From a virus: a stretch of DNA of 64,000 bases. Below the pieces are notes generated by a model that was not told where the DNA came from, made no database searches, and saw only the letters and a list, made by a program, of their open reading frames with translations. This document shows, one piece after another, positions 196 through 46,390 of the stretch. Both the position numbers and the translations under genes were made by a program. The stretch is from positions 64,001-128,000 of IMG/VR virus record IMGVR_UViG_3300032236_001232, one strand, 5' to 3'. How positions within the stretch are numbered: the first letter of the stretch is position 1; the number at the start of each line of letters is the position of its first letter.

Positions 196-1893
196 TTATT
201 CTTTAACTATTAATTTTTTAATGTCAGGAAGATAAAGATAGTTGATATCACAATTTAATATAGTATCTAGGGCATCTTCAATTGAGTCTACTAGAGGGGC
301 TCCTGCTAGATTAAAACTGGTATTAAACAATACAGGAACTCCAGTTTTCTCATAAAAGGATTTTATTAATTCGTAATAGTTTTTATTTTCTTTACTCTTA
401 ACTGTTTGAATTCTACAGGTGCCGTCGACATGTGTAATAGCAGGAATATCACCTAACTTATCGGGGTGGACATTAACCGCATACATCATGTAAGGTGAAT
501 CTTCCAGTCCTCTCATTTCAAACCATTCTTCGGCATGTTCTGCCATTACGGATCCGGCAAAGGGTCTAAACCATTCACGCCCTTTAACTTGATTGACAAT
601 GTCTTTTCCATTAGGAGTTCTAGGATCAAATAAAATACTTCTATTTCCCAGTGCCCTAGGACCACCTTCTGCTCTACCAGAGAACATAGCCACAATATTT
701 TGATCTGCTATAAGTTGACTAACCTTATTGGCATCAGTATTGTGCATTTTACATTTAATCGTTTTAACATAATCCTCAAGAGCAGCATAGCTAGGAGCGA
801 ATCCCAAATACAATGTATCTAGTTTTTTGGCCTCTGTGGAATTGCTATGAGAATACCATGCTAATTTAGCTAGCCCGATGGCTGTTCCACCATCGTGCGC
901 GATAGGATCAACATATAAATTAATATTAGGGAATCGTTTTTTGTAATAATAATTGGCCATACAATTCAGGCCATATCCGCCGGATAATACTACATTAGTT
1001 TCCCCAGATAGATCAATTGCCTTTTCGATTAGGTCCCCTAACTGTTCTTGTGTTGCCTGTTGAACTGCCCACGCTAGGTTTTTATCTACGTCGGATACTT
1101 CACTAAAATCTTTATGCCAAACTTGAGGCTCAATTGTTCTTTTTAAATATGGGAATCTATTTTCATCGATTACTGCGCCACGGGGATATAAAGGAATTAA
1201 TAGATTTTTATTTCCTTTTCCTTCAATAAAGAACTCTGGAATTTTAGGATCGTATTCCCCATATGGTGCTAGCCCCATGGTCTTGCCAGCCTCTATAAAC
1301 CCAAATCCTAGATAATCACTAACTGCTTCATATGCTTTGGTTATAGTTACGGTATTATCAAATTCTTGTATACCATTATTAAAATAACTTGCATTACCGT
1401 CTGCATATCTTTTATAAAGAGGTTCAATATCGGTAGGATATCCGCATTTATAGATAGATTCAGTTTCAAAACCTGCTACAGCTTGTTGGTTAGGTTCTTG
1501 TCCTACTAGTGCCTGATGAACACTACCTGCTCCATCAGCTATAATAGCAACAGCAGTTTCAAACCCACTGTTGTAAAACGCACCAGCAGCATGACCTAGA
1601 TGGTGCTGAGATCCTAAATTTGTAATAGAAACGGACGGATTATACTTACGAACTAGAGCAGAATAAGGATCTTCAAATGTCCACGGTAGTAGTGGTAAGT
1701 CATTGCTAGTTCCACCGATAATTAATTCATCTATTTTATATTCGTGAAGTATGCGAATCATGGCTTTAAAAGGATTTCCGTCATACTTCATACGACTAAG
1801 ACGTTCTTCTTCTACATAATATATCAGTTTACCATCGGATACCAGTGCTGCTGACCCGTTATGTCCGGGATTTATAGCCAATATGTTATACAT
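196..1893 (-). CDS. Carbamoyltransferase, NodU/CmcH/TobZ family
   Basis: Motifs HNGSAAL, EEER, HHLGHA, GKTMGLAPYG, GGYGLNC, GPRALGNRSIL, KGREWFRPFA, HVDGTCRIQT, NTSFN; 565 aa. Confidence 0.95.
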   Translation of the reverse strand: MYNILAINPGHNGSAALVSDGKLIYYVEEERLSRMKYDGNPFKAMIRILHEYKIDELIIGGTSNDLPLLPWTFEDPYSALVRKYNPSVSITNLGSQHHLGHAAGAFYNSGFETAVAIIADGAGSVHQALVGQEPNQQAVAGFETESIYKCGYPTDIEPLYKRYADGNASYFNNGIQEFDNTVTITKAYEAVSDYLGFGFIEAGKTMGLAPYGEYDPKIPEFFIEGKGNKNLLIPLYPRGAVIDENRFPYLKRTIEPQVWHKDFSEVSDVDKNLAWAVQQATQEQLGDLIEKAIDLSGETNVVLSGGYGLNCMANYYYKKRFPNINLYVDPIAHDGGTAIGLAKLAWYSHSNSTEAKKLDTLYLGFAPSYAALEDYVKTIKCKMHNTDANKVSQLIADQNIVAMFSGRAEGGPRALGNRSILFDPRTPNGKDIVNQVKGREWFRPFAGSVMAEHAEEWFEMRGLEDSPYMMYAVNVHPDKLGDIPAITHVDGTCRIQTVKSKENKNYYELIKSFYEKTGVPVLFNTSFNLAGAPLVDSIEDALDTILNCDINYLYLPDIKKLIVKE

Positions 1894-31854: not shown

Positions 31855-33051
31855 TTAAGCAGTATGTGCTAGGGAAACAATACCAAGGCTAGCACTGCTA
31901 ATAGACCAACCAGCGGACGAACCGTCGGCAAATCTATATCCAGCACCGGCACTGGTTCTTTGAACTAGATAAGCTCTGTGTGCAGTTAGCTTGGTTACCC
32001 AATATGTGCAACCTTCTGTGTCAGTGGCGATTAAACACATTTCACCCGGATACAGATCACCAGGGTTGCTGGCCACTAGTCGGCACTGACCAACTTTACC
32101 ATTGTCATCTCTGGTCTTAACTAGGTAACGACGGCTGGCTTCCTGTTTCATAATATCAGCAAGAGCACCTTCAGTACCATCAATAATATTAACATAAACT
32201 GCTAGACCTGGTTGATACAGGTTAGTCAGCACCGAAGTACCGGCTGCTGCTCCACCACTAAATGTAACACTAGCGTCGGCTACATCAAAATAATGACTAC
32301 CGGCATTGGTGATCGCAACACTCTTAACACCGTAAGTAACGTTCAATTTAGCATTTCCGTTTCCACTACCGCTAGTAGATACAGGGTTGCTAGGTACTGC
32401 TGTATAATCTCCACCGTTAGCTACTGTAACGCCAGCAACACCCCAGTCAGTTAATGTTACTTGAAGATTGGTTCCGTTCGTGTCAATAGCACCGTAGGTC
32501 TGTGTGCGGGTAGCGCCGATAGTATTGGCCGGGGCGGTAGTTCCTGACCAAACACCTGGACTATAAATGGCTACTGCTGATGCTGTTCCACCTGCTGCTG
32601 CGGTGACTACAACTTCTAGTGGAGTTGTCCATGTACCACCACCGTATGTTCCGCTGAAGGAAAAACGGTCGCCTGTGTCGTTGTTGCTTCCGCCATTTTG
32701 CGGTGTGCTATTAATGGAAACTGTTCTAAGAGCATTAACAGTAAATGTTGCCGAAGTAACATTTGTTCCTCCACCAACTGCTAGTGTATTAGCATAAGCA
32801 TATCCTGTACCTGTAGTGTTTACAGTAGCAGTTAAGGCCATACCGTGTACAACACCAGTTGCTGTTGTTCCCAATGCTAGGTCAGGTGTACCAAACGATA
32901 CAGTTGGCAATGTGCCAACGTATGTTCCAGTTGTGGTAATTGTTACGCTGGCAATGCCTTCTCCGCCTTCGCCAGTTGCACCACCTGTGGCATGATTCTG
33001 GTAAGGCGAGTTTAAATTCGCAAAGAATTTCTTTTTAATTGGACGTCCCAT
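31855..33051 (-). CDS. Putative abundant virion structural protein (start reassigned to MGRPIKKKFF)
   Basis: Strong SD AAGGAGA before the ATG at 33051; T/G-rich; followed by a terminator. Confidence 0.7.
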   Translation of the reverse strand: MGRPIKKKFFANLNSPYQNHATGGATGEGGEGIASVTITTTGTYVGTLPTVSFGTPDLALGTTATGVVHGMALTATVNTTGTGYAYANTLAVGGGTNVTSATFTVNALRTVSINSTPQNGGSNNDTGDRFSFSGTYGGGTWTTPLEVVVTAAAGGTASAVAIYSPGVWSGTTAPANTIGATRTQTYGAIDTNGTNLQVTLTDWGVAGVTVANGGDYTAVPSNPVSTSGSGNGNAKLNVTYGVKSVAITNAGSHYFDVADASVTFSGGAAAGTSVLTNLYQPGLAVYVNIIDGTEGALADIMKQEASRRYLVKTRDDNGKVGQCRLVASNPGDLYPGEMCLIATDTEGCTYWVTKLTAHRAYLVQRTSAGAGYRFADGSSAGWSISSASLGIVSLAHTA

Positions 33052-33073
33052 TTTATTTCTCCTTGTTGTTATG

Positions 33074-33131
33074 ACAGTTCTATTGCCTACGCGGTTGGGG
33101 TTCCGCATAAACTCTCTCTCGAGCGAACAGT
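33074..33131 (-). promoter_or_regulatory. Candidate structured 5' leader RNA
   Basis: GTTC/GAAC closing stem, CTC-GAGA-GAG and TATGCGG/CCGCGTA hairpins between TAAATA and the SD. Confidence 0.5.
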
Positions 33132-42120: not shown

Positions 42121-42993
42121 ATGACGATTCAGGCAAAAGTAAACCCATTACTCGGCTATATGAGACAGCCGAAGATCTATGTTCGATTACCAAGTAATGG
42201 ATTCTTTTGGGAAGAGGGCAGTATTGATGTGCCCGAAAACAACGAATTTCCAGTATATTCGATGACAGCCAAGGATGAATTAACATTCAAGACTCCGGAC
42301 GCCCTAATGAATGGGCAAGCGGTAGTTGATGTTATTCAAAGTTGTATGCCTAACATAAAAGATGCATGGAAATGTCCCGGGATAGATGTTGACCTTATTC
42401 TAATCGCAATTAGAATCGCTACATACGGCGGGACCATGACCATCTCACATCAGGTTCCCGGGACTGATGAAACCGTTGACCACAGTATCGACCTTACTGC
42501 TGTAATGGATCAGATATTATCTACAACAAATTGGAATGAAACCGTAGAAATTAGTCCAGATATTACATGTGGTGTTAAGCCGTTAACATATAGGCAAATG
42601 ACCGATGTAGGTATTAGGACGTTTGAATCACAAAAGACCATGCAGTCCGTTGCTAATTCCGATTTATCAGATGAACAAAAATTAGAATTTTTTAATCAAG
42701 GACTATCAAAGCTAACTGATCTTACAGTAGAAATGATTGCGGCCAGTATATTTTATGTAAAGACACCCAATAGTTTTGTTGAAAATCGACAATTTATTCA
42801 AGAATTTATTCAAAATGCTGACGCAGTGTTAACGCAAAAGATTCAAGACCTTATAACTGAAAACAAAAAGACAGTGGGTATTCTTCCAATAACAGTGCAT
42901 TCTACCGAAGAGCAGATTCTTGCTGGTGCTCCTGTATCTTATGAATTACCTATCACAATGGATAATTCCAATTTTTTCGTTCAAGGCTCTTAA
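42121..42993 (+). CDS. gp26: T4 gp26-like baseplate hub / tail assembly chaperone
   Basis: IYVRLPS.G, PVYSMTAKDE, DVDLILIAIRIATYG. Confidence 0.75.
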   Translation: MTIQAKVNPLLGYMRQPKIYVRLPSNGFFWEEGSIDVPENNEFPVYSMTAKDELTFKTPDALMNGQAVVDVIQSCMPNIKDAWKCPGIDVDLILIAIRIATYGGTMTISHQVPGTDETVDHSIDLTAVMDQILSTTNWNETVEISPDITCGVKPLTYRQMTDVGIRTFESQKTMQSVANSDLSDEQKLEFFNQGLSKLTDLTVEMIAASIFYVKTPNSFVENRQFIQEFIQNADAVLTQKIQDLITENKKTVGILPITVHSTEEQILAGAPVSYELPITMDNSNFFVQGS

Positions 42994-43208
42994 CATTATC
43001 TAATGATGAGATTATCAAATTAGTTGAGAGCCATGAAAAAGAATCAAAGGTATTAAAGAAAGAATTATTTAAACTGTGTTGGTATATGAGAGGATCTATT
43101 ACCATAGAGCAAGCCTTTCAATTAGATTACGAAAGTAGAGAAATTATTAGTAGTATTATTAGTGAGAACTTAGAAACAACAAAGGAAAGCGGACTTCCTT
43201 TCTTTTAA
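42972..43208 (+). CDS. -1 frame extension of the gp26-like gene (or a small separate ORF)
   Basis: Open frame FFRSRLLTLSNDEII...LCWYMRGSITIEQAF...KESGLPFF* with no ATG until WYM; begins at slippery T TTT TTC. Not in the ORF track. Confidence 0.7.
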   Translation, partial: FFRSRLLTLSNDEIIKLVESHEKESKVLKKELFKLCWYMRGSITIEQAFQLDYESREIISSIISENLETTKESGLPFF

Positions 43209-43211
43209 TAC

Positions 43212-43658
43212 TGAGAAGTGAACTGCGTTCACTTGATATTTCGCGCGAAGCGCTCATATCATATGGTCTTCTTCGAAGAAGATATTAATATTATCCAGAT
43301 TCATTGGTCACACTTCGCCCGCACAGGGCGAAGAATATTGAACATTATCCGAGTTCTTATGTTCACTTAGTGTTAGAGCGTTACAGAGGCGGTCATCCGG
43401 TACCTCGAGCTCCGTCTTCGATATGACGGCAGCATAACAATATACACTAACATATTGGTATGCCCAGGGTTTTTCTCCCTTCTTTTAGCCTATTTTAATA
43501 TTTTCTAACAATCAAACAGCAGGTCTTGGCTGTCTACATCCTTGCGGGTAGTGATTGAGAACTCTTAGCGGCAAGAGATTTCCGTCCCTGTGATACGATT
43601 GTCCAGGTTTAGGGCACTTGAAGTTGGCCAGTGCAAGCCTTAATACCGCGTGATATGC
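43212..43658 (-). ncRNA. Candidate large structured non-coding RNA (~450 nt), family not recognised
   Basis: ORF-free stretch packed with about ten stems, a GCAA tetraloop on the minus strand and a potential 7-bp pseudoknot. Confidence 0.65.
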
Positions 43659-44084
43659 CTATTTTTTTCTTATATGACTACCGTGAATACGGCAGTTTAT
43701 GATGCCATTGTAATAATCGTCTGATTCCAATACTTTGCGTTCAAACTGTTCTCGGGCCTCGATGTAACTGGTTTCTGCCTTGCTGCCACAATAATAAAGT
43801 ATTTCTCTTGTGAAATTTTCTTTGCCTAGTTTAGATATGTCTTCATGGAGATTAGGACTGCTACCCCAATATTCTCTCCAATCGCTGTCTATTTTACTTT
43901 TAATTCGTTTTTTCTTTTTAGTGCCGTTTTTTAATGTAACTGTTTTATATGTAGTTTTGCTGAATTTACTTAATTTTTTGCCTATGTATTTTCTGCCGGT
44001 GACAGTGTTGGTTATGATATAAACATAACCAACACAATCCTCGGGCAGTTCATCAATAACTGTACCTTGATAGGTCCAGGTCAT
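43659..44084 (-). CDS. Small GIY-YIG nuclease-family protein
   Basis: GYVYIITN..TGRKYIGKK, YWGSS, F.REIL, E..E, YYN; Lys-rich insertion; 141 aa. Confidence 0.8.
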   Translation of the reverse strand: MTWTYQGTVIDELPEDCVGYVYIITNTVTGRKYIGKKLSKFSKTTYKTVTLKNGTKKKKRIKSKIDSDWREYWGSSPNLHEDISKLGKENFTREILYYCGSKAETSYIEAREQFERKVLESDDYYNGIINCRIHGSHIRKK

Positions 44085-44087
44085 TGA

Positions 44088-44315
44088 TTATTTTTTAGCT
44101 GCTTTTACTGGTGCTGCTTTCGCTGCGTCTTTTTCTGCCTTGCGAGCATTCTTTTCAGCAGTGATTTCGTTGCGACGAGCCTTCACTAGTTTGCTGATAT
44201 CGGCCAATGCTTTGCGAGCACGAGTTCCGGCAGCAGCGTTACCACTGGTGAATTTAGCATCTTCTTTGAGAAACTCATCAAATGCTGCTTGTAGATTTTC
44301 AACTGTCGATTCCAT
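44088..44315 (-). CDS. Small basic histone H1-like (Hc1-type) DNA-binding protein
   Basis: KFTSGNAAAGTRARKAL..I.KL.KARR core with an Ala/Lys tail. Confidence 0.7.
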   Translation of the reverse strand: MESTVENLQAAFDEFLKEDAKFTSGNAAAGTRARKALADISKLVKARRNEITAEKNARKAEKDAAKAAPVKAAKK

Positions 44316-44613
44316 TTTTTCTTCCTTTTGGTCTTCCGCCAGGCTTAATCCTGGGTTTTGCTTTTGCTCTCAATTCTTTGAGACGTTGTCTTTGAGCCTT
44401 GGTGTTTTCTTGATTTTCTTTAAAGCACTCTAATGCCAATTGAGCCATTTCTCTTTCAAGTTTGATCATTGAATATAAACTGGTTCTAACTTGAGCAGTA
44501 GAATCTTTACCTCGATTCTCCATAAACACGCTATGATAGTTATGCAAAGTTACAAAGTGCTTTACATATTCTGAATACAGCACTCTATAACGATCAATTT
44601 TTTCAGTTAACAT
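44299..44613 (-). CDS. Hypothetical protein (104 aa, basic C-terminus)
   Basis: Overlaps both neighbours in the operon. Confidence 0.65.
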   Translation of the reverse strand: MLTEKIDRYRVLYSEYVKHFVTLHNYHSVFMENRGKDSTAQVRTSLYSMIKLEREMAQLALECFKENQENTKAQRQRLKELRAKAKPRIKPGGRPKGRKNGIDS

Positions 44614-46390
44614 AATCTAAACTGTTAGAATACGAAGTGAACCCATTCTCTTTGATAACCCTAAGCACGTTATTCACACGCCCGATCAATTCATCCTTAT
44701 GACTGATTAAGTATATATTCTTATTTCGTTCTCTGGCCATCTTTTTTAGAACCGCTAGGGCACTTTCTACCCCTGCTGAGTCCATGCCCGCATCGACTAA
44801 CTCGTCGATAAACAGTAGATTGATATGTTGATACAGTCCTTCCCATACATCACGGAAGGCAAAACTCATGCTGAGAATCAATCTATTGCGTTCTCCGCGT
44901 GACAAATTGTCAAAATCTAAGTCTTGTCCTAACTGTGTAATCTCCACTGTAAGGTCATTTTGAAACACAACAGTATGTGGTAATCCAAGTTTGTCAATAT
45001 AATAACTTAATCGCTTGTTGAGATAGGACAAATTCTGATCAATAATACGTTTTCTAATAAAACTATCTTTATTGGTCAACAGTTTATGTAAGAATTCTTG
45101 ATGATCCTTTAATCGAGTAAGATCATTAATGGTGTCCCAGGATATTTCTTGGATAGCGGTATTCTTTAATTCTTCAATTTGTTCATCAAAGGGATTTAAT
45201 TCCAATACCTTGCTCTCTAGTGACTTGGTTAATTGATCTAAATTATTCTTATGCCCTAGTGCTTCCGCCTCTGTATCGTAGAAAGGTTCTGGTCTGCGCC
45301 CTTGTTCGCCTATGTCTGAAAGCTCTTGCAGCACATTATCATAGTTGGTCTGACAAGTATCGAGATATACAACAGCATCTTCTAAATTCTTAGTTGCCGT
45401 TGTGGTCATTTCTTCATGTTTGTGATCATGAATATTCTGTTCACAAGCAGGACATTTTTTATCCAGTAGTGATTCCAATGCCTTACGATACCGTTCAACG
45501 GCTTTTTCGGCCTGTGTCACTGCTGTTTCATATGTGGCTTTTTGTTTATTTAGATCTCTAATCCTGTTAGAGTTTTCTAGCCACTGCTTTAGTGTAGCAT
45601 GAAGCAGTAGTTCGGCATCAATATCTACCGATTCAAGACTGACAATAGCAGCACCTAGTTTTTCAATCTCTTCATTCTTCTTTTTATTCCATGCTGCGCT
45701 CTTAATGCCTAAACTGTCAATGCTTTTTTGAACGTTTTCGTTGGCAGATTTAATTGCTTCAATACGAAATTGTTCGGAACTGATTAAATCTTTAGTTTCT
45801 TTGACACGAGTTTTTAGTAGTTCGGCCTTTTCACTGAGCAGTGTAATGCCCAACAATTGTTCAATTACTTCACGTTGATCAGCAGCCCGCATGGCCAAGA
45901 AAGGTTCTGTATAGGTATTCAGAGCAACTAGATGTTTGAACATGGTATGAGTCATGTCCAACATCTGTTCAATAGACTTTTGTGTTTCTCTGCTGTCACC
46001 TTGGCTTTCGTCCTCGCCTTGATTATCCATACTGATCTCTCGATCATCTACATACAATCTCAGCAAATTGGGTTTGCGTCCTCGTTCAATACGATAGTTT
46101 AGCCCATTCTTTTCGAACTCCACAGTGATCAACATGTTCTTACCGTTGATCTTGTTGATTAAGTTTTCTTTACGGATGTTGGTCAGTGCTTGTCCGTATA
46201 GGGCATAGCTGAGAGCATTGATAATTGTAGTCTTACCGGTGCCGTTGCGTGATCCAGTATCGTCGCCACCTAGGTCTAGGTTGCTGCCTAGCACCAATGT
46301 AAGAGATTCTTGGTCAAAATTTACTGCCTGGGTTTGATTACCCACGCTCATAAAATTCTTTACGGTTAAGTTTTTAATGCGGAATGTCAT
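44603..46390 (-). CDS. gp46: Recombination endonuclease ATPase subunit (gp46/SbcC/Rad50)
   Basis: KNFMSVG, NGTGKT Walker A, CPAC zinc hook, LSRGE signature, LLFIDE Walker B, ISH. Confidence 0.96.
   Translation of the reverse strand: MTFRIKNLTVKNFMSVGNQTQAVNFDQESLTLVLGSNLDLGGDDTGSRNGTGKTTIINALSYALYGQALTNIRKENLINKINGKNMLITVEFEKNGLNYRIERGRKPNLLRLYVDDREISMDNQGEDESQGDSRETQKSIEQMLDMTHTMFKHLVALNTYTEPFLAMRAADQREVIEQLLGITLLSEKAELLKTRVKETKDLISSEQFRIEAIKSANENVQKSIDSLGIKSAAWNKKKNEEIEKLGAAIVSLESVDIDAELLLHATLKQWLENSNRIRDLNKQKATYETAVTQAEKAVERYRKALESLLDKKCPACEQNIHDHKHEEMTTTATKNLEDAVVYLDTCQTNYDNVLQELSDIGEQGRRPEPFYDTEAEALGHKNNLDQLTKSLESKVLELNPFDEQIEELKNTAIQEISWDTINDLTRLKDHQEFLHKLLTNKDSFIRKRIIDQNLSYLNKRLSYYIDKLGLPHTVVFQNDLTVEITQLGQDLDFDNLSRGERNRLILSMSFAFRDVWEGLYQHINLLFIDELVDAGMDSAGVESALAVLKKMARERNKNIYLISHKDELIGRVNNVLRVIKENGFTSYSNSLDYVN

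What the first reader, a model, noticed from the sequence alone, without database searches (positions are those of the whole stretch)
43209..44084. Minimal GIY-YIG protein followed directly by a ~450-nt densely folded, pseudoknotted RNA
Seen: this is the only large non-coding gap in the window, and it starts at the GIY-YIG stop codon. Stems (plus-strand coordinates): AAGTGAAC/GTTCACTT 43216-34; GATAT..GCGC/GCGC..ATATC 43235-60; palindrome TCTTCTTCGAAGAAGA 43267-82; CTTCGCCC/GGGCGAAG 43313-33; TGAACAT/ATGTTCA 43339-65; GAGG..CCTC 43386-406; CCGTC/GACGG 43412-29; GCATA.CAATAT/ATATTG.TATGC. The loop of that last stem, ACACTAA (43444-50), is complementary to TTAGTGT (43367-73), giving a possible pseudoknot. 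An AATCA/TGATT-closed junction carries a GCAA tetraloop on the minus strand. The protein is catalytic-domain only and has a Lys-rich insert (KNGTKKKKRIKSK). Inference: a ribonucleoprotein in which the RNA scaffolds or guides the nuclease, analogous to HEARO/omega RNAs with IscB/TnpB, or an independent large phage ncRNA or ribozyme. Caveat: T4 endonuclease II is a similarly small GIY-YIG that needs no RNA.
Basis: partly seen in the sequence, partly recalled or inferred. Interest (0 to 1): 0.8.

Follow-up and report, generated by a model that had tools for sequence, protein, structure and literature searches.

The report
Full-length Polynucleobacter-1 twin-box phage RNA
The gene-free gap behind a small nuclease gene of this uncultured giant freshwater phage encodes a real, knotted non-coding RNA of about 425 bases that belongs to an orphan RNA family catalogued in 2010 (Polynucleobacter-1); it does not look like a guide for the nuclease, and its function is still unknown.

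Summary
All the stems and the pseudoknot are in the sequence and are backed by covariation in 67 non-redundant relatives. The RNA lies on the minus strand, co-oriented with the GIY-YIG gene.

It is not unrecognised. Its 5' third (43639-43506) matches Rfam RF01718, Polynucleobacter-1, at 106 bits against a cut-off of 37. Only the 3' third is uncatalogued. That part carries two identical 7-nt boxes (GGAUAAU) that change together between relatives.

The nuclease link reflects gene order rather than mechanism:
- The module sits at one fixed place (gp46 ... GIY-YIG, RNA ... gp26-like) in over 100 phage contigs.
- Cultured-phage homologues of the nuclease lack the RNA.
- Four contigs carry a PD-(D/E)XK nuclease in its place.
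- Three contigs have other genes inserted between nuclease and RNA.
- No long guide-like segment exists.

I could not find what reads the twin boxes. This scan has already reported the same RNA on other DNA (123 notes). Verdict: an ordinary member of a known orphan family, with function unknown.

The parts
43659..44084 (-). 141-aa stand-alone GIY-YIG nuclease gene (phrog_447 family, often mislabelled 'NAD synthetase')
   Evidence: Pfam PF19835 SegE_GIY-YIG, E 4e-32, profile positions 1-123 of 123. phrog_447, E 3.5e-36. AlphaFold model pLDDT 89; best fold match is the I-TevI catalytic domain 1LN0/1MK0. The catalytic residues Y22, Y33, R93, E109 and N126 are invariant or nearly so.
43216..43639 (-). 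Full-length structured non-coding RNA, about 424 nt. It starts 19 nt after the nuclease stop codon.
   Evidence: Sequence is conserved over the whole length in 68 non-redundant loci. The next gene boundary always lies 375-450 nt after the anchor motif, whatever gene follows.
43506..43639 (-). 5' domain = Rfam RF01718 Polynucleobacter-1 (helices P1-P6, including the GCAA-capped P5 inside the P4 junction)
   Evidence: cmscan 106.4 bits against a gathering score of 37, E 2e-23, model positions 1-141 of 141. P1, P3, P4 and P6 covary.
43367..43505 (-). Middle domain, the 'tail' of Weinberg 2010. T1: 43480-77 with 43469-66. T2: 43463-52 with 43443-32. T3: 43428-25 with 43416-13. T4: 43412-09 with 43379-76, enclosing T5: 43406-03 with 43389-86. 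Pseudoknot PK: 43450-44 with 43373-67.
   Evidence: T2 has 11 of 11 pairs with double changes. PK has 7 of 7 (93% paired). T4 has 4 of 4 (97% paired). The same helices and a 7-bp pseudoknot appear in the SS_cons and SS_cons_1 lines of the 2010 Stockholm file.
43216..43366 (-). Uncatalogued 3' third. T6 hairpin: 43364-59 with 43345-40. T7: 43333-26 with 43320-13. T9 UUCG hairpin: 43282-78 with 43274-70. T10: 43260-56 with 43239-35, enclosing T11: 43253-50 with 43246-43. Terminal hairpin T12: 43234-27 with 43223-16.
   Evidence: T7 is 95% paired. T10 has 5 of 5 and T12 has 7 of 8 pairs with double changes. This part lies beyond the ACTUAL_MOTIF limit of the 2010 alignment. T12 has no U tract, so it is not a canonical intrinsic terminator.
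43344..43350 (-). Twin box 1 (GGAUAAU), mostly in the loop of hairpin T6
   Evidence: Identical to box 2 in 66 of 67 non-redundant relatives, across 7 box variants.
43290..43296 (-). Twin box 2 (GGAUAAU), 54 nt 3' of box 1
   Evidence: Each variable box position has full mutual information only with the same position of the other box. There are at least 20 variant changes on a tree built without the box columns. All 9 independent contrasts on supported branches agree.

Best explanation
The gap encodes one long non-coding RNA on the minus strand. It is a full-length member of the Polynucleobacter-1 family.

What is shown:
- An RF01718 core, then a pseudoknotted middle domain, then a 3' domain with two identical 7-nt boxes.
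- One copy per genome, at a fixed syntenic place: gp47, gp46, small genes, small nuclease, RNA, variable genes, then the convergent gp26-like baseplate gene. This holds in a group of uncultured phages; two near-complete relatives are about 350 kb.

What is inferred:
- The RNA is transcribed as the 3' end of the nuclease operon. It starts 19 nt after the stop codon and no promoter stands out.
- It ends at the conserved hairpin T12.
- It acts in trans as a rigid scaffold that shows the same short word twice to a bivalent partner, or to a partner present in two copies. That partner could be a dimeric protein or a short nucleic acid, and it changes its specificity in step with the boxes.

The GIY-YIG is a conserved stand-alone nuclease of the phage's DNA-metabolism block. 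It is a neighbour of the RNA, not its obligate partner.
For: - Rfam match at 106 bits.
- At least 119 IMG/VR contigs carry the core motif.
- Covariation of 78 of 102 pairs, with G-U pairs on the minus sense.
- The 2010 alignment already holds the middle domain, the pseudoknot and the linkage to a gene whose C-terminus reads ...YYNGHIQVRVHGSHI, matching this ORF.
- Fixed synteny in about 118 loci, with variable genes on both sides of the module.
- One copy in genomes that are 100% and 95% complete.
- The nuclease family lacks the RNA in phiN3 and P-HM1, and no RNA was found behind the Melnitz homologue, where only a 148-nt gap follows.
- PDDEXK_15 replaces the GIY-YIG in L053, L090, L096 and L109. 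No GIY-YIG is found elsewhere in the 121-kb contig of L090.
- Twin boxes are identical in 66 of 67 sequences despite at least 20 changes.
- No internal complement or covarying column exists for the boxes.
Against: - RNA ends, abundance and processing are therefore inferred.
- The partner of the boxes was not found, so 'read in trans' is an argument by exclusion.
- 108 of 120 loci do have the GIY-YIG directly upstream. Seven of the other twelve could not be scored: six lack upstream DNA and L060 is a chance match. A functional link in most phages is therefore not excluded.
- The contigs with PDDEXK are incomplete (3-35%), so a GIY-YIG elsewhere in those genomes cannot be ruled out.
Confidence: 0.72

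Rival explanations
1. RNP reading. The RNA is made in cis from the nuclease transcript. It binds the 141-aa GIY-YIG, for example through the Lys-rich beta-hairpin, and scaffolds or directs it, with the twin boxes acting as a short address.
For: - The GIY-YIG lies immediately upstream on the same strand in 108 of 120 loci.
- The protein has no DNA-binding domain of its own.
- It has a basic beta-hairpin.
- The boxes are the only fast-changing, apparently unpaired words in the RNA.
Against: - Homologues at 36-43% identity in cultured phages keep the same basic hairpin, yet the next gene abuts or overlaps them (phiN3, P-HM1). The 51% Melnitz homologue has only a 148-nt gap behind it, with no RNA motif.
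- A PD-(D/E)XK nuclease replaces the GIY-YIG in 4 loci, and genes are inserted between nuclease and RNA in L041, L080 and L086.
- No GIY-YIG column tracks any box position: maximum MI 0.40 against an entropy of 0.81 for position 1.
- A 7-nt word occurs 10-25 times per 164 kb by chance, and neither the box nor its complement is enriched.
Confidence: 0.12
2. Cis-acting 3' UTR element. The structure stabilises or terminates the operon mRNA, or insulates it from convergent late transcription of the baseplate genes. It has no trans function. Weinberg 2010 listed the motif as possibly cis-regulatory.
For: - It starts 19 nt after a stop codon.
- In the window it lies at a convergent junction.
- It ends in a conserved hairpin.
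- The 2010 table marks it 'cis-reg: y'.
Against: - About 424 nt, about 20 helices, a pseudoknot and many invariant loop residues are far more than stabilisers or terminators need.
- The RNA is kept when the upstream gene is swapped, and also when co-directional genes follow it.
- T12 lacks a U tract.
- Concerted change of two boxes has no role in such a model.
Confidence: 0.1
3. Template or DNA-level element. In one version the two identical boxes are repeats for template jumping by a polymerase, as in reverse-transcriptase defence RNAs. In the other, the region is a DNA site such as an origin, a recombination site or a homing target of the neighbouring nucleases.
For: - Two identical short words 47-58 nt apart are what a template-jump mechanism needs.
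- Two unrelated small nucleases occupy the slot next to the RNA gene, as free-standing homing endonucleases do next to their targets.
Against: - No reverse transcriptase is in the 164-kb contig, which is however only 46% complete.
- Box spacing shows no triplet periodicity and no open frame.
- G-U covariation shows selection on one RNA strand, not on duplex DNA.
- The nuclease gene is a fixed, conserved gene rather than a sporadic mobile one.
Confidence: 0.04

Closest known systems
Polynucleobacter-1 RNA motif (Rfam RF01718; Weinberg et al. 2010, Genome Biol 11:R31, PMC2864571)
   Same: - The 5' 134 nt match the whole model at 106 bits.
- The middle domain and the 7-bp pseudoknot match the 'tail' and 'tailpknot' of the authors' Stockholm file.
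- The position directly downstream of the 'GOS11034' gene family is the same, and that family is this GIY-YIG.
   Different: - The Rfam model stops at nt 141, and the authors' motif stops at the pseudoknot.
- The last roughly 150 nt, with the twin boxes and helices T6-T12, are not annotated there.
- The authors found no copy in a sequenced phage and did not name the neighbouring gene a nuclease.
- Here the carriers are large uncultured phage contigs.
GOLLD, ROOL and other large ornate RNAs of phages and prophages (Kretsch et al. 2025, PMC12286853; comparison from my own knowledge of that paper's abstract)
   Same: They are large (over 400 nt), multi-pseudoknotted, phage-associated non-coding RNAs of unknown function found by comparative genomics.
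   Different: There is no sequence or Rfam relation. No evidence here for or against homo-oligomeric assembly. Twin identical boxes are not a described feature of those RNAs.
omega RNA / HEARO RNA with IscB or TnpB
   Same: A structured RNA is encoded directly 3' of a compact nuclease gene on the same strand.
   Different: - The nuclease here is GIY-YIG, not RuvC/HNH.
- There is no guide of 16 nt or more, no transposon ends and a fixed genomic place.
- The RNA persists without this nuclease, and the nuclease persists without the RNA.
I-TevI catalytic domain, Seg-type GIY-YIG endonucleases and T4 endonuclease II
   Same: It has the GIY-YIG catalytic fold and residues. The best fold match is the I-TevI catalytic domain. 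It is small and stand-alone like T4 endonuclease II (the size of endonuclease II is from my own knowledge).
   Different: - It has no linker or DNA-binding domain.
- It has an added basic beta-hairpin at residues 40-66.
- It is a conserved gene at a fixed place, not a sporadic one.
- No sequence match to any solved structure at E up to 1.

Membership tests
Polynucleobacter-1 RNA (RF01718) | Covariance-model score at or above the curated gathering score (37 bits) over the full model | tested here: met
   106.4 bits, E 2e-23, model positions 1-141 of 141, window 43639-43506 minus strand
Polynucleobacter-1 RNA (RF01718) | Core helices kept by compensatory changes | tested here: met
   P1 has 5 of 5 pairs with double changes and is 99% paired. 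P3, P4 and P6 each have 3 pairs with double changes.
Polynucleobacter-1 RNA (RF01718) | 3' 'tail' with hairpins and a 7-bp pseudoknot, as drawn in the authors' alignment | tested here: met
   T1, T2, T4/T5 and PK correspond to SS_cons and SS_cons_1. PK has 7 of 7 pairs covarying.
Polynucleobacter-1 RNA (RF01718) | Located downstream of a GOS11034-family gene | tested here: met
   The upstream coding sequence in the authors' alignment translates to EQFSRRVLESEEYYNGHIQVRVHGSHI. This matches residues 112-138 of the window's GIY-YIG by eye. 108 of 120 loci have the homologue upstream.
Guide-RNA nuclease RNP (omega RNA/HEARO with IscB/TnpB) | A variable guide segment of about 16 nt or more at one end of a conserved scaffold | tested here: not met
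   The only fast-changing unpaired words are two identical 7-mers. The other variable stretch is an A-rich linker of variable length.
Guide-RNA nuclease RNP (omega RNA/HEARO with IscB/TnpB) | RNA and nuclease strictly co-occur | tested here: not met
   RNA-less homologues exist in phiN3 and P-HM1, and none was found in Melnitz. PDDEXK_15 takes the nuclease's place in 4 loci. Genes are inserted between nuclease and RNA in 3 loci.
Guide-RNA nuclease RNP (omega RNA/HEARO with IscB/TnpB) | RuvC or HNH nuclease in a mobile element | tested here: not met
   The nuclease is GIY-YIG. The locus sits at a fixed syntenic place in about 118 loci.
Free-standing GIY-YIG homing endonuclease (Seg / I-TevI type) | GIY-YIG catalytic domain with its conserved Tyr, Tyr, Arg, Glu and Asn | tested here: met
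   PF19835 over the full domain. Y22, Y33, E109 and N126 are invariant and R93 is nearly invariant. The fold resembles the I-TevI catalytic domain.
Free-standing GIY-YIG homing endonuclease (Seg / I-TevI type) | C-terminal DNA-binding domain and sporadic, mobile distribution | tested here: not met
   The 141 aa are filled by the catalytic domain. The gene is at the same place in nearly all relatives and is present in 462 cultured-phage records.
Group I intron carrying a homing endonuclease gene | Match to group I intron models, and a split host gene | tested here: not met
   There are no intron families among the Rfam hits even at E up to 10. The flanking genes are whole, and one is on the other strand.
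Intrinsic terminator / simple 3' UTR stabiliser | GC-rich hairpin followed by a U tract | tested here: not met
   No terminator-like site on the minus strand in 42900-44700. T12 is followed by CUCAGUAUU.

The most novel reading that the evidence does not exclude
The twin boxes are a re-codable address. A rigid phage RNA shows the same 7-nt word twice to a partner that re-codes in step. The partner could be a short nucleic acid elsewhere in the roughly 350-kb genome or in the host, or a dimeric protein. The word has been rewritten at least 20 times in this phage group. That would be a new kind of bivalent, programmable RNA recognition module in phages, possibly one that brings the neighbouring nuclease or another effector to a target.
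Probability: 0.15. Interest if true: 0.8.

Novelty: new member of a known kind. Interest (0 to 1): 0.42.

Why it matters
Polynucleobacter-1 has been an orphan motif since 2010, with no function, no known carrier and only 16 examples.

This window, with the loci gathered here, places the RNA in uncultured phages with T4-like genes; two near-complete relatives are about 350 kb. MAG contigs that carry it are labelled mostly with freshwater taxa, including Limnohabitans and Polynucleobacter. It occurs once per genome, at the end of the gp47-gp46-nuclease block. The RNA is about three times longer than the Rfam model.

The two boxes that always change together are a concrete handle for experiments. 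Swapping one box or both, or using the boxes as bait, would test what the RNA binds.

For annotation it matters in two smaller ways. The neighbouring gene, widely labelled 'NAD synthetase', is a GIY-YIG nuclease. The attractive idea of an RNA-guided GIY-YIG nuclease has no support here.

Tried and rejected
1. Internal partner for the boxes. No reverse complement of 6-7 nt occurs inside the RNA in 74 loci. No alignment column except the twin position has high mutual information; the next best for position 1 is 0.22. The RNAalifold pairing of box 1 with box 2 breaks in the AG and GC variants, so I rejected it.

2. Genomic partner. Neither the box nor its complement is enriched in the 164-kb contig or within 6 kb either side in 74 loci. 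Cognate and non-cognate words are equally frequent there.

3. A single reader able to pair with both boxes and their flanks (U, complement, GGG). It gave two hits inside coding regions, at genome 64988 (carbamoyltransferase) and 40558 (a 366-aa ORF). The homologous sites in other genomes with other boxes do not follow the box, so both are chance.

4. Protein reader among the neighbours. GIY-YIG columns do not track the boxes. For larger neighbouring proteins the test has no power, because MI saturates with clade structure.

5. Template-jump or coding repeat. Box spacing is 47-58 nt with no triplet bias and no open frame. There is no reverse transcriptase and no tRNA gene in the contig.

6. Cultured carrier. 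blastn with three family members against 50,697 GenBank phage records found nothing. Rfam found nothing behind the GIY-YIG homologues of Melnitz, phiN3 and P-HM1, and the 148-nt Melnitz gap has none of the motifs.

7. Expression.

8. Promoter and terminator scan. Nothing above what shuffles give.

9. PDB sequence search for the nuclease. No match.

Full report
**What is there**

The finding spans a 141-aa ORF on the minus strand (43659-44084) and the 450-nt gap 43209-43658. This is the largest gap between ORFs of 100 aa or more in the window. The plus-strand reading frame that ends at 43208 converges on it.

The ORF is a complete GIY-YIG catalytic domain. It matches Pfam SegE_GIY-YIG at E 4e-32 over profile positions 1-123 of 123, and phrog_447 at E 3.5e-36, a family mislabelled 'NAD synthetase'. 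An AlphaFold model from 34 homologues has pLDDT 89. Its best fold match is the I-TevI catalytic domain, and it has an extra basic beta-hairpin at residues 40-66. There is no DNA-binding domain.

**The RNA is real, and partly known**

Rfam places 43639-43506 (minus strand) in RF01718, Polynucleobacter-1. The score is 106.4 bits against a gathering score of 37, over the whole model.

In 68 non-redundant loci the sequence is conserved over about 425 nt, not just the 141 nt of the model. The next gene always begins or ends 375-450 nt after the anchor, whichever gene that is.

I wrote a structure of 102 pairs from the window's own stems and counted it on the alignment:
- 85.1% of cells pair, against 74.0% in shuffles and 35-43% when partners are slid.
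- 78 pairs have changes on both sides.
- Many G-U pairs show that the minus strand is the functional one.

Its 'AATCA/TGATT junction with GCAA loop' is P4/P5 of the Rfam model.

**What was already published**

Weinberg et al. 2010 (PMC2864571) say the motif's 3' half is not always detected. They also say that most examples lie downstream of genes of family GOS11034, with possible homology to PSSM2_218 of cyanophage P-SSM2, and that none was found in a purified phage.

Their Stockholm file draws the hairpins I call T1, T2 and T4/T5, plus a 7-bp pseudoknot. Their motif ends at the pseudoknot's 3' strand. The coding sequence upstream of one of their examples translates to ...EQFSRRVLESEEYYNGHIQVRVHGSHI, which matches the C-terminus of the window's GIY-YIG.

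So two thirds of the RNA, the pseudoknot and the gene linkage were on record. The last roughly 150 nt (T6-T12) and the nuclease nature of the neighbour were not.

**Twin boxes**

The 3' third holds GGAUAAU twice, at 43350-43344 and 43296-43290. In 66 of 67 non-redundant relatives the two copies are identical, although seven variants exist.

Each variable position shares all its information with the same position of the other box and little with any other column. For position 1 the values are 0.88 against 0.22 for the next best column.

On a tree built without the box columns there are at least 20 changes of variant. Position 1 changes 12 times in both boxes. All nine independent contrasts on supported branches go the same way.

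I found this before consulting the scan's notes. Those notes report the same feature in many other genomes.

**Is the nuclease the partner?**

The GIY-YIG sits directly upstream in 108 of 120 loci. Six of the other twelve simply lack upstream DNA, and L060 is a chance match to the pattern. The linkage nonetheless looks like gene order rather than mechanism:

1. Nearly all loci share one frame: gp47-like, gp46-like, variable small genes, nuclease, RNA, zero to five variable genes, then a 72-aa ORF and a gp26-like gene on the other strand. The module is therefore inherited in place, not mobile.
2. The nuclease family occurs in 462 cultured-phage records, all below 60% identity. In phiN3 and P-HM1 the next gene abuts or overlaps it. 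In Melnitz only 148 nt follow, without any of the motifs. Rfam finds nothing in any of the three.
3. The basic hairpin is present in those RNA-less homologues too.
4. In L053, L090, L096 and L109 a PD-(D/E)XK endonuclease (PF24608) takes the slot. No GIY-YIG is found in the rest of those contigs, one of which is 121 kb, though all are incomplete.
5. In L041, L080 and L086 other genes lie between nuclease and RNA.
6. No GIY-YIG residue follows the boxes.

There is one copy of the RNA per genome, including genomes that are 100% and 95% complete at 364 and 342 kb.

I found none:
- no internal complement;
- no enrichment of the word or its complement in the contig or near the locus;
- two candidate sites for a common reader turned out to be chance matches in coding regions;
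- no reverse transcriptase or tRNA gene in the contig;
- box spacing of 47-58 nt shows no coding signal.

**Carriers**

No GenBank phage matches at blastn sensitivity. In species-representative genomes the true matches lie on MAG contigs labelled Limnohabitans (two), Polynucleobacter, Bacteroidetes (two), Haliscomenobacter, Planctomycetaceae and Syntrophobacter. These are probably phage contigs that were binned with bacterial genomes. The window's own record is a 164-kb IMG/VR contig rated 46% complete.

**Verdict**

The RNP or guide reading is not supported. The 'independent large phage RNA' reading is supported, and the RNA belongs to a family already in Rfam.

The most likely mechanism is inferred rather than shown. 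The RNA is an operon-terminal, stable transcript. Its knotted core presents one short word twice to a bivalent partner that is still unknown.

No expression data could be obtained.

Noticed in passing
window 33049-33126 (-): A second orphan Rfam motif, freshwater-2 RNA (RF02980), scores 57.1 bits against a gathering score of 49.9. It overlaps the start of the 417-aa ORF 31855-33108.
   Followed up: no
window 42972-43208 (+): The gp26-like baseplate ORF (42121-42993, PF12322) ends just after a slippery T_TTT_TTC at 42972-42978. The -1 frame is open from there to 43208. It encodes the homologue of a 72-aa ORF that has its own ATG in relatives (MRLL...), but has no ATG, GTG or TTG at that point here (SRLL...). 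Possible explanations are a -1 frameshift fusion, a non-canonical start or a decaying gene.
   Followed up: partly
window 44088-44315 (-): A 75-aa Lys/Ala-rich protein matches the chlamydial histone-like Hc1 family (PF07432, E 1.7e-13). It lies 3 nt upstream of the GIY-YIG start. The small genes in this slot vary between relatives.
   Followed up: partly
L090:1127-1639 (-), L053:13758-14273 (-), also L096 and L109: A 171-aa phage PD-(D/E)XK endonuclease (PF24608; phrog_244 'RusA-like resolvase') occupies the slot directly upstream of the RNA in place of the GIY-YIG. One small nuclease has been displaced by an unrelated one.
   Followed up: partly
cultured-phage records, e.g. L122:2501-2917, L123:2420-2905: The phrog_447 GIY-YIG family is annotated 'NAD synthetase' in many GenBank and RefSeq phage records, including cyanophages and Sinorhizobium phages. 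It has every GIY-YIG catalytic residue, so the name looks like a propagated error.
   Followed up: partly
window 196-1893 (-): A 565-aa carbamoyltransferase (PF16861 and PF02543) is encoded in this phage contig and conserved in five related large phage contigs.
   Followed up: no
L113 and L119, between helix T5 and the pseudoknot 3' strand: Two relatives carry an insertion of about 60 nt inside the middle domain of the RNA. L009, L019, L023, L053 and L087 carry shorter insertions at the same point. This marks a tolerated expansion site.
   Followed up: no
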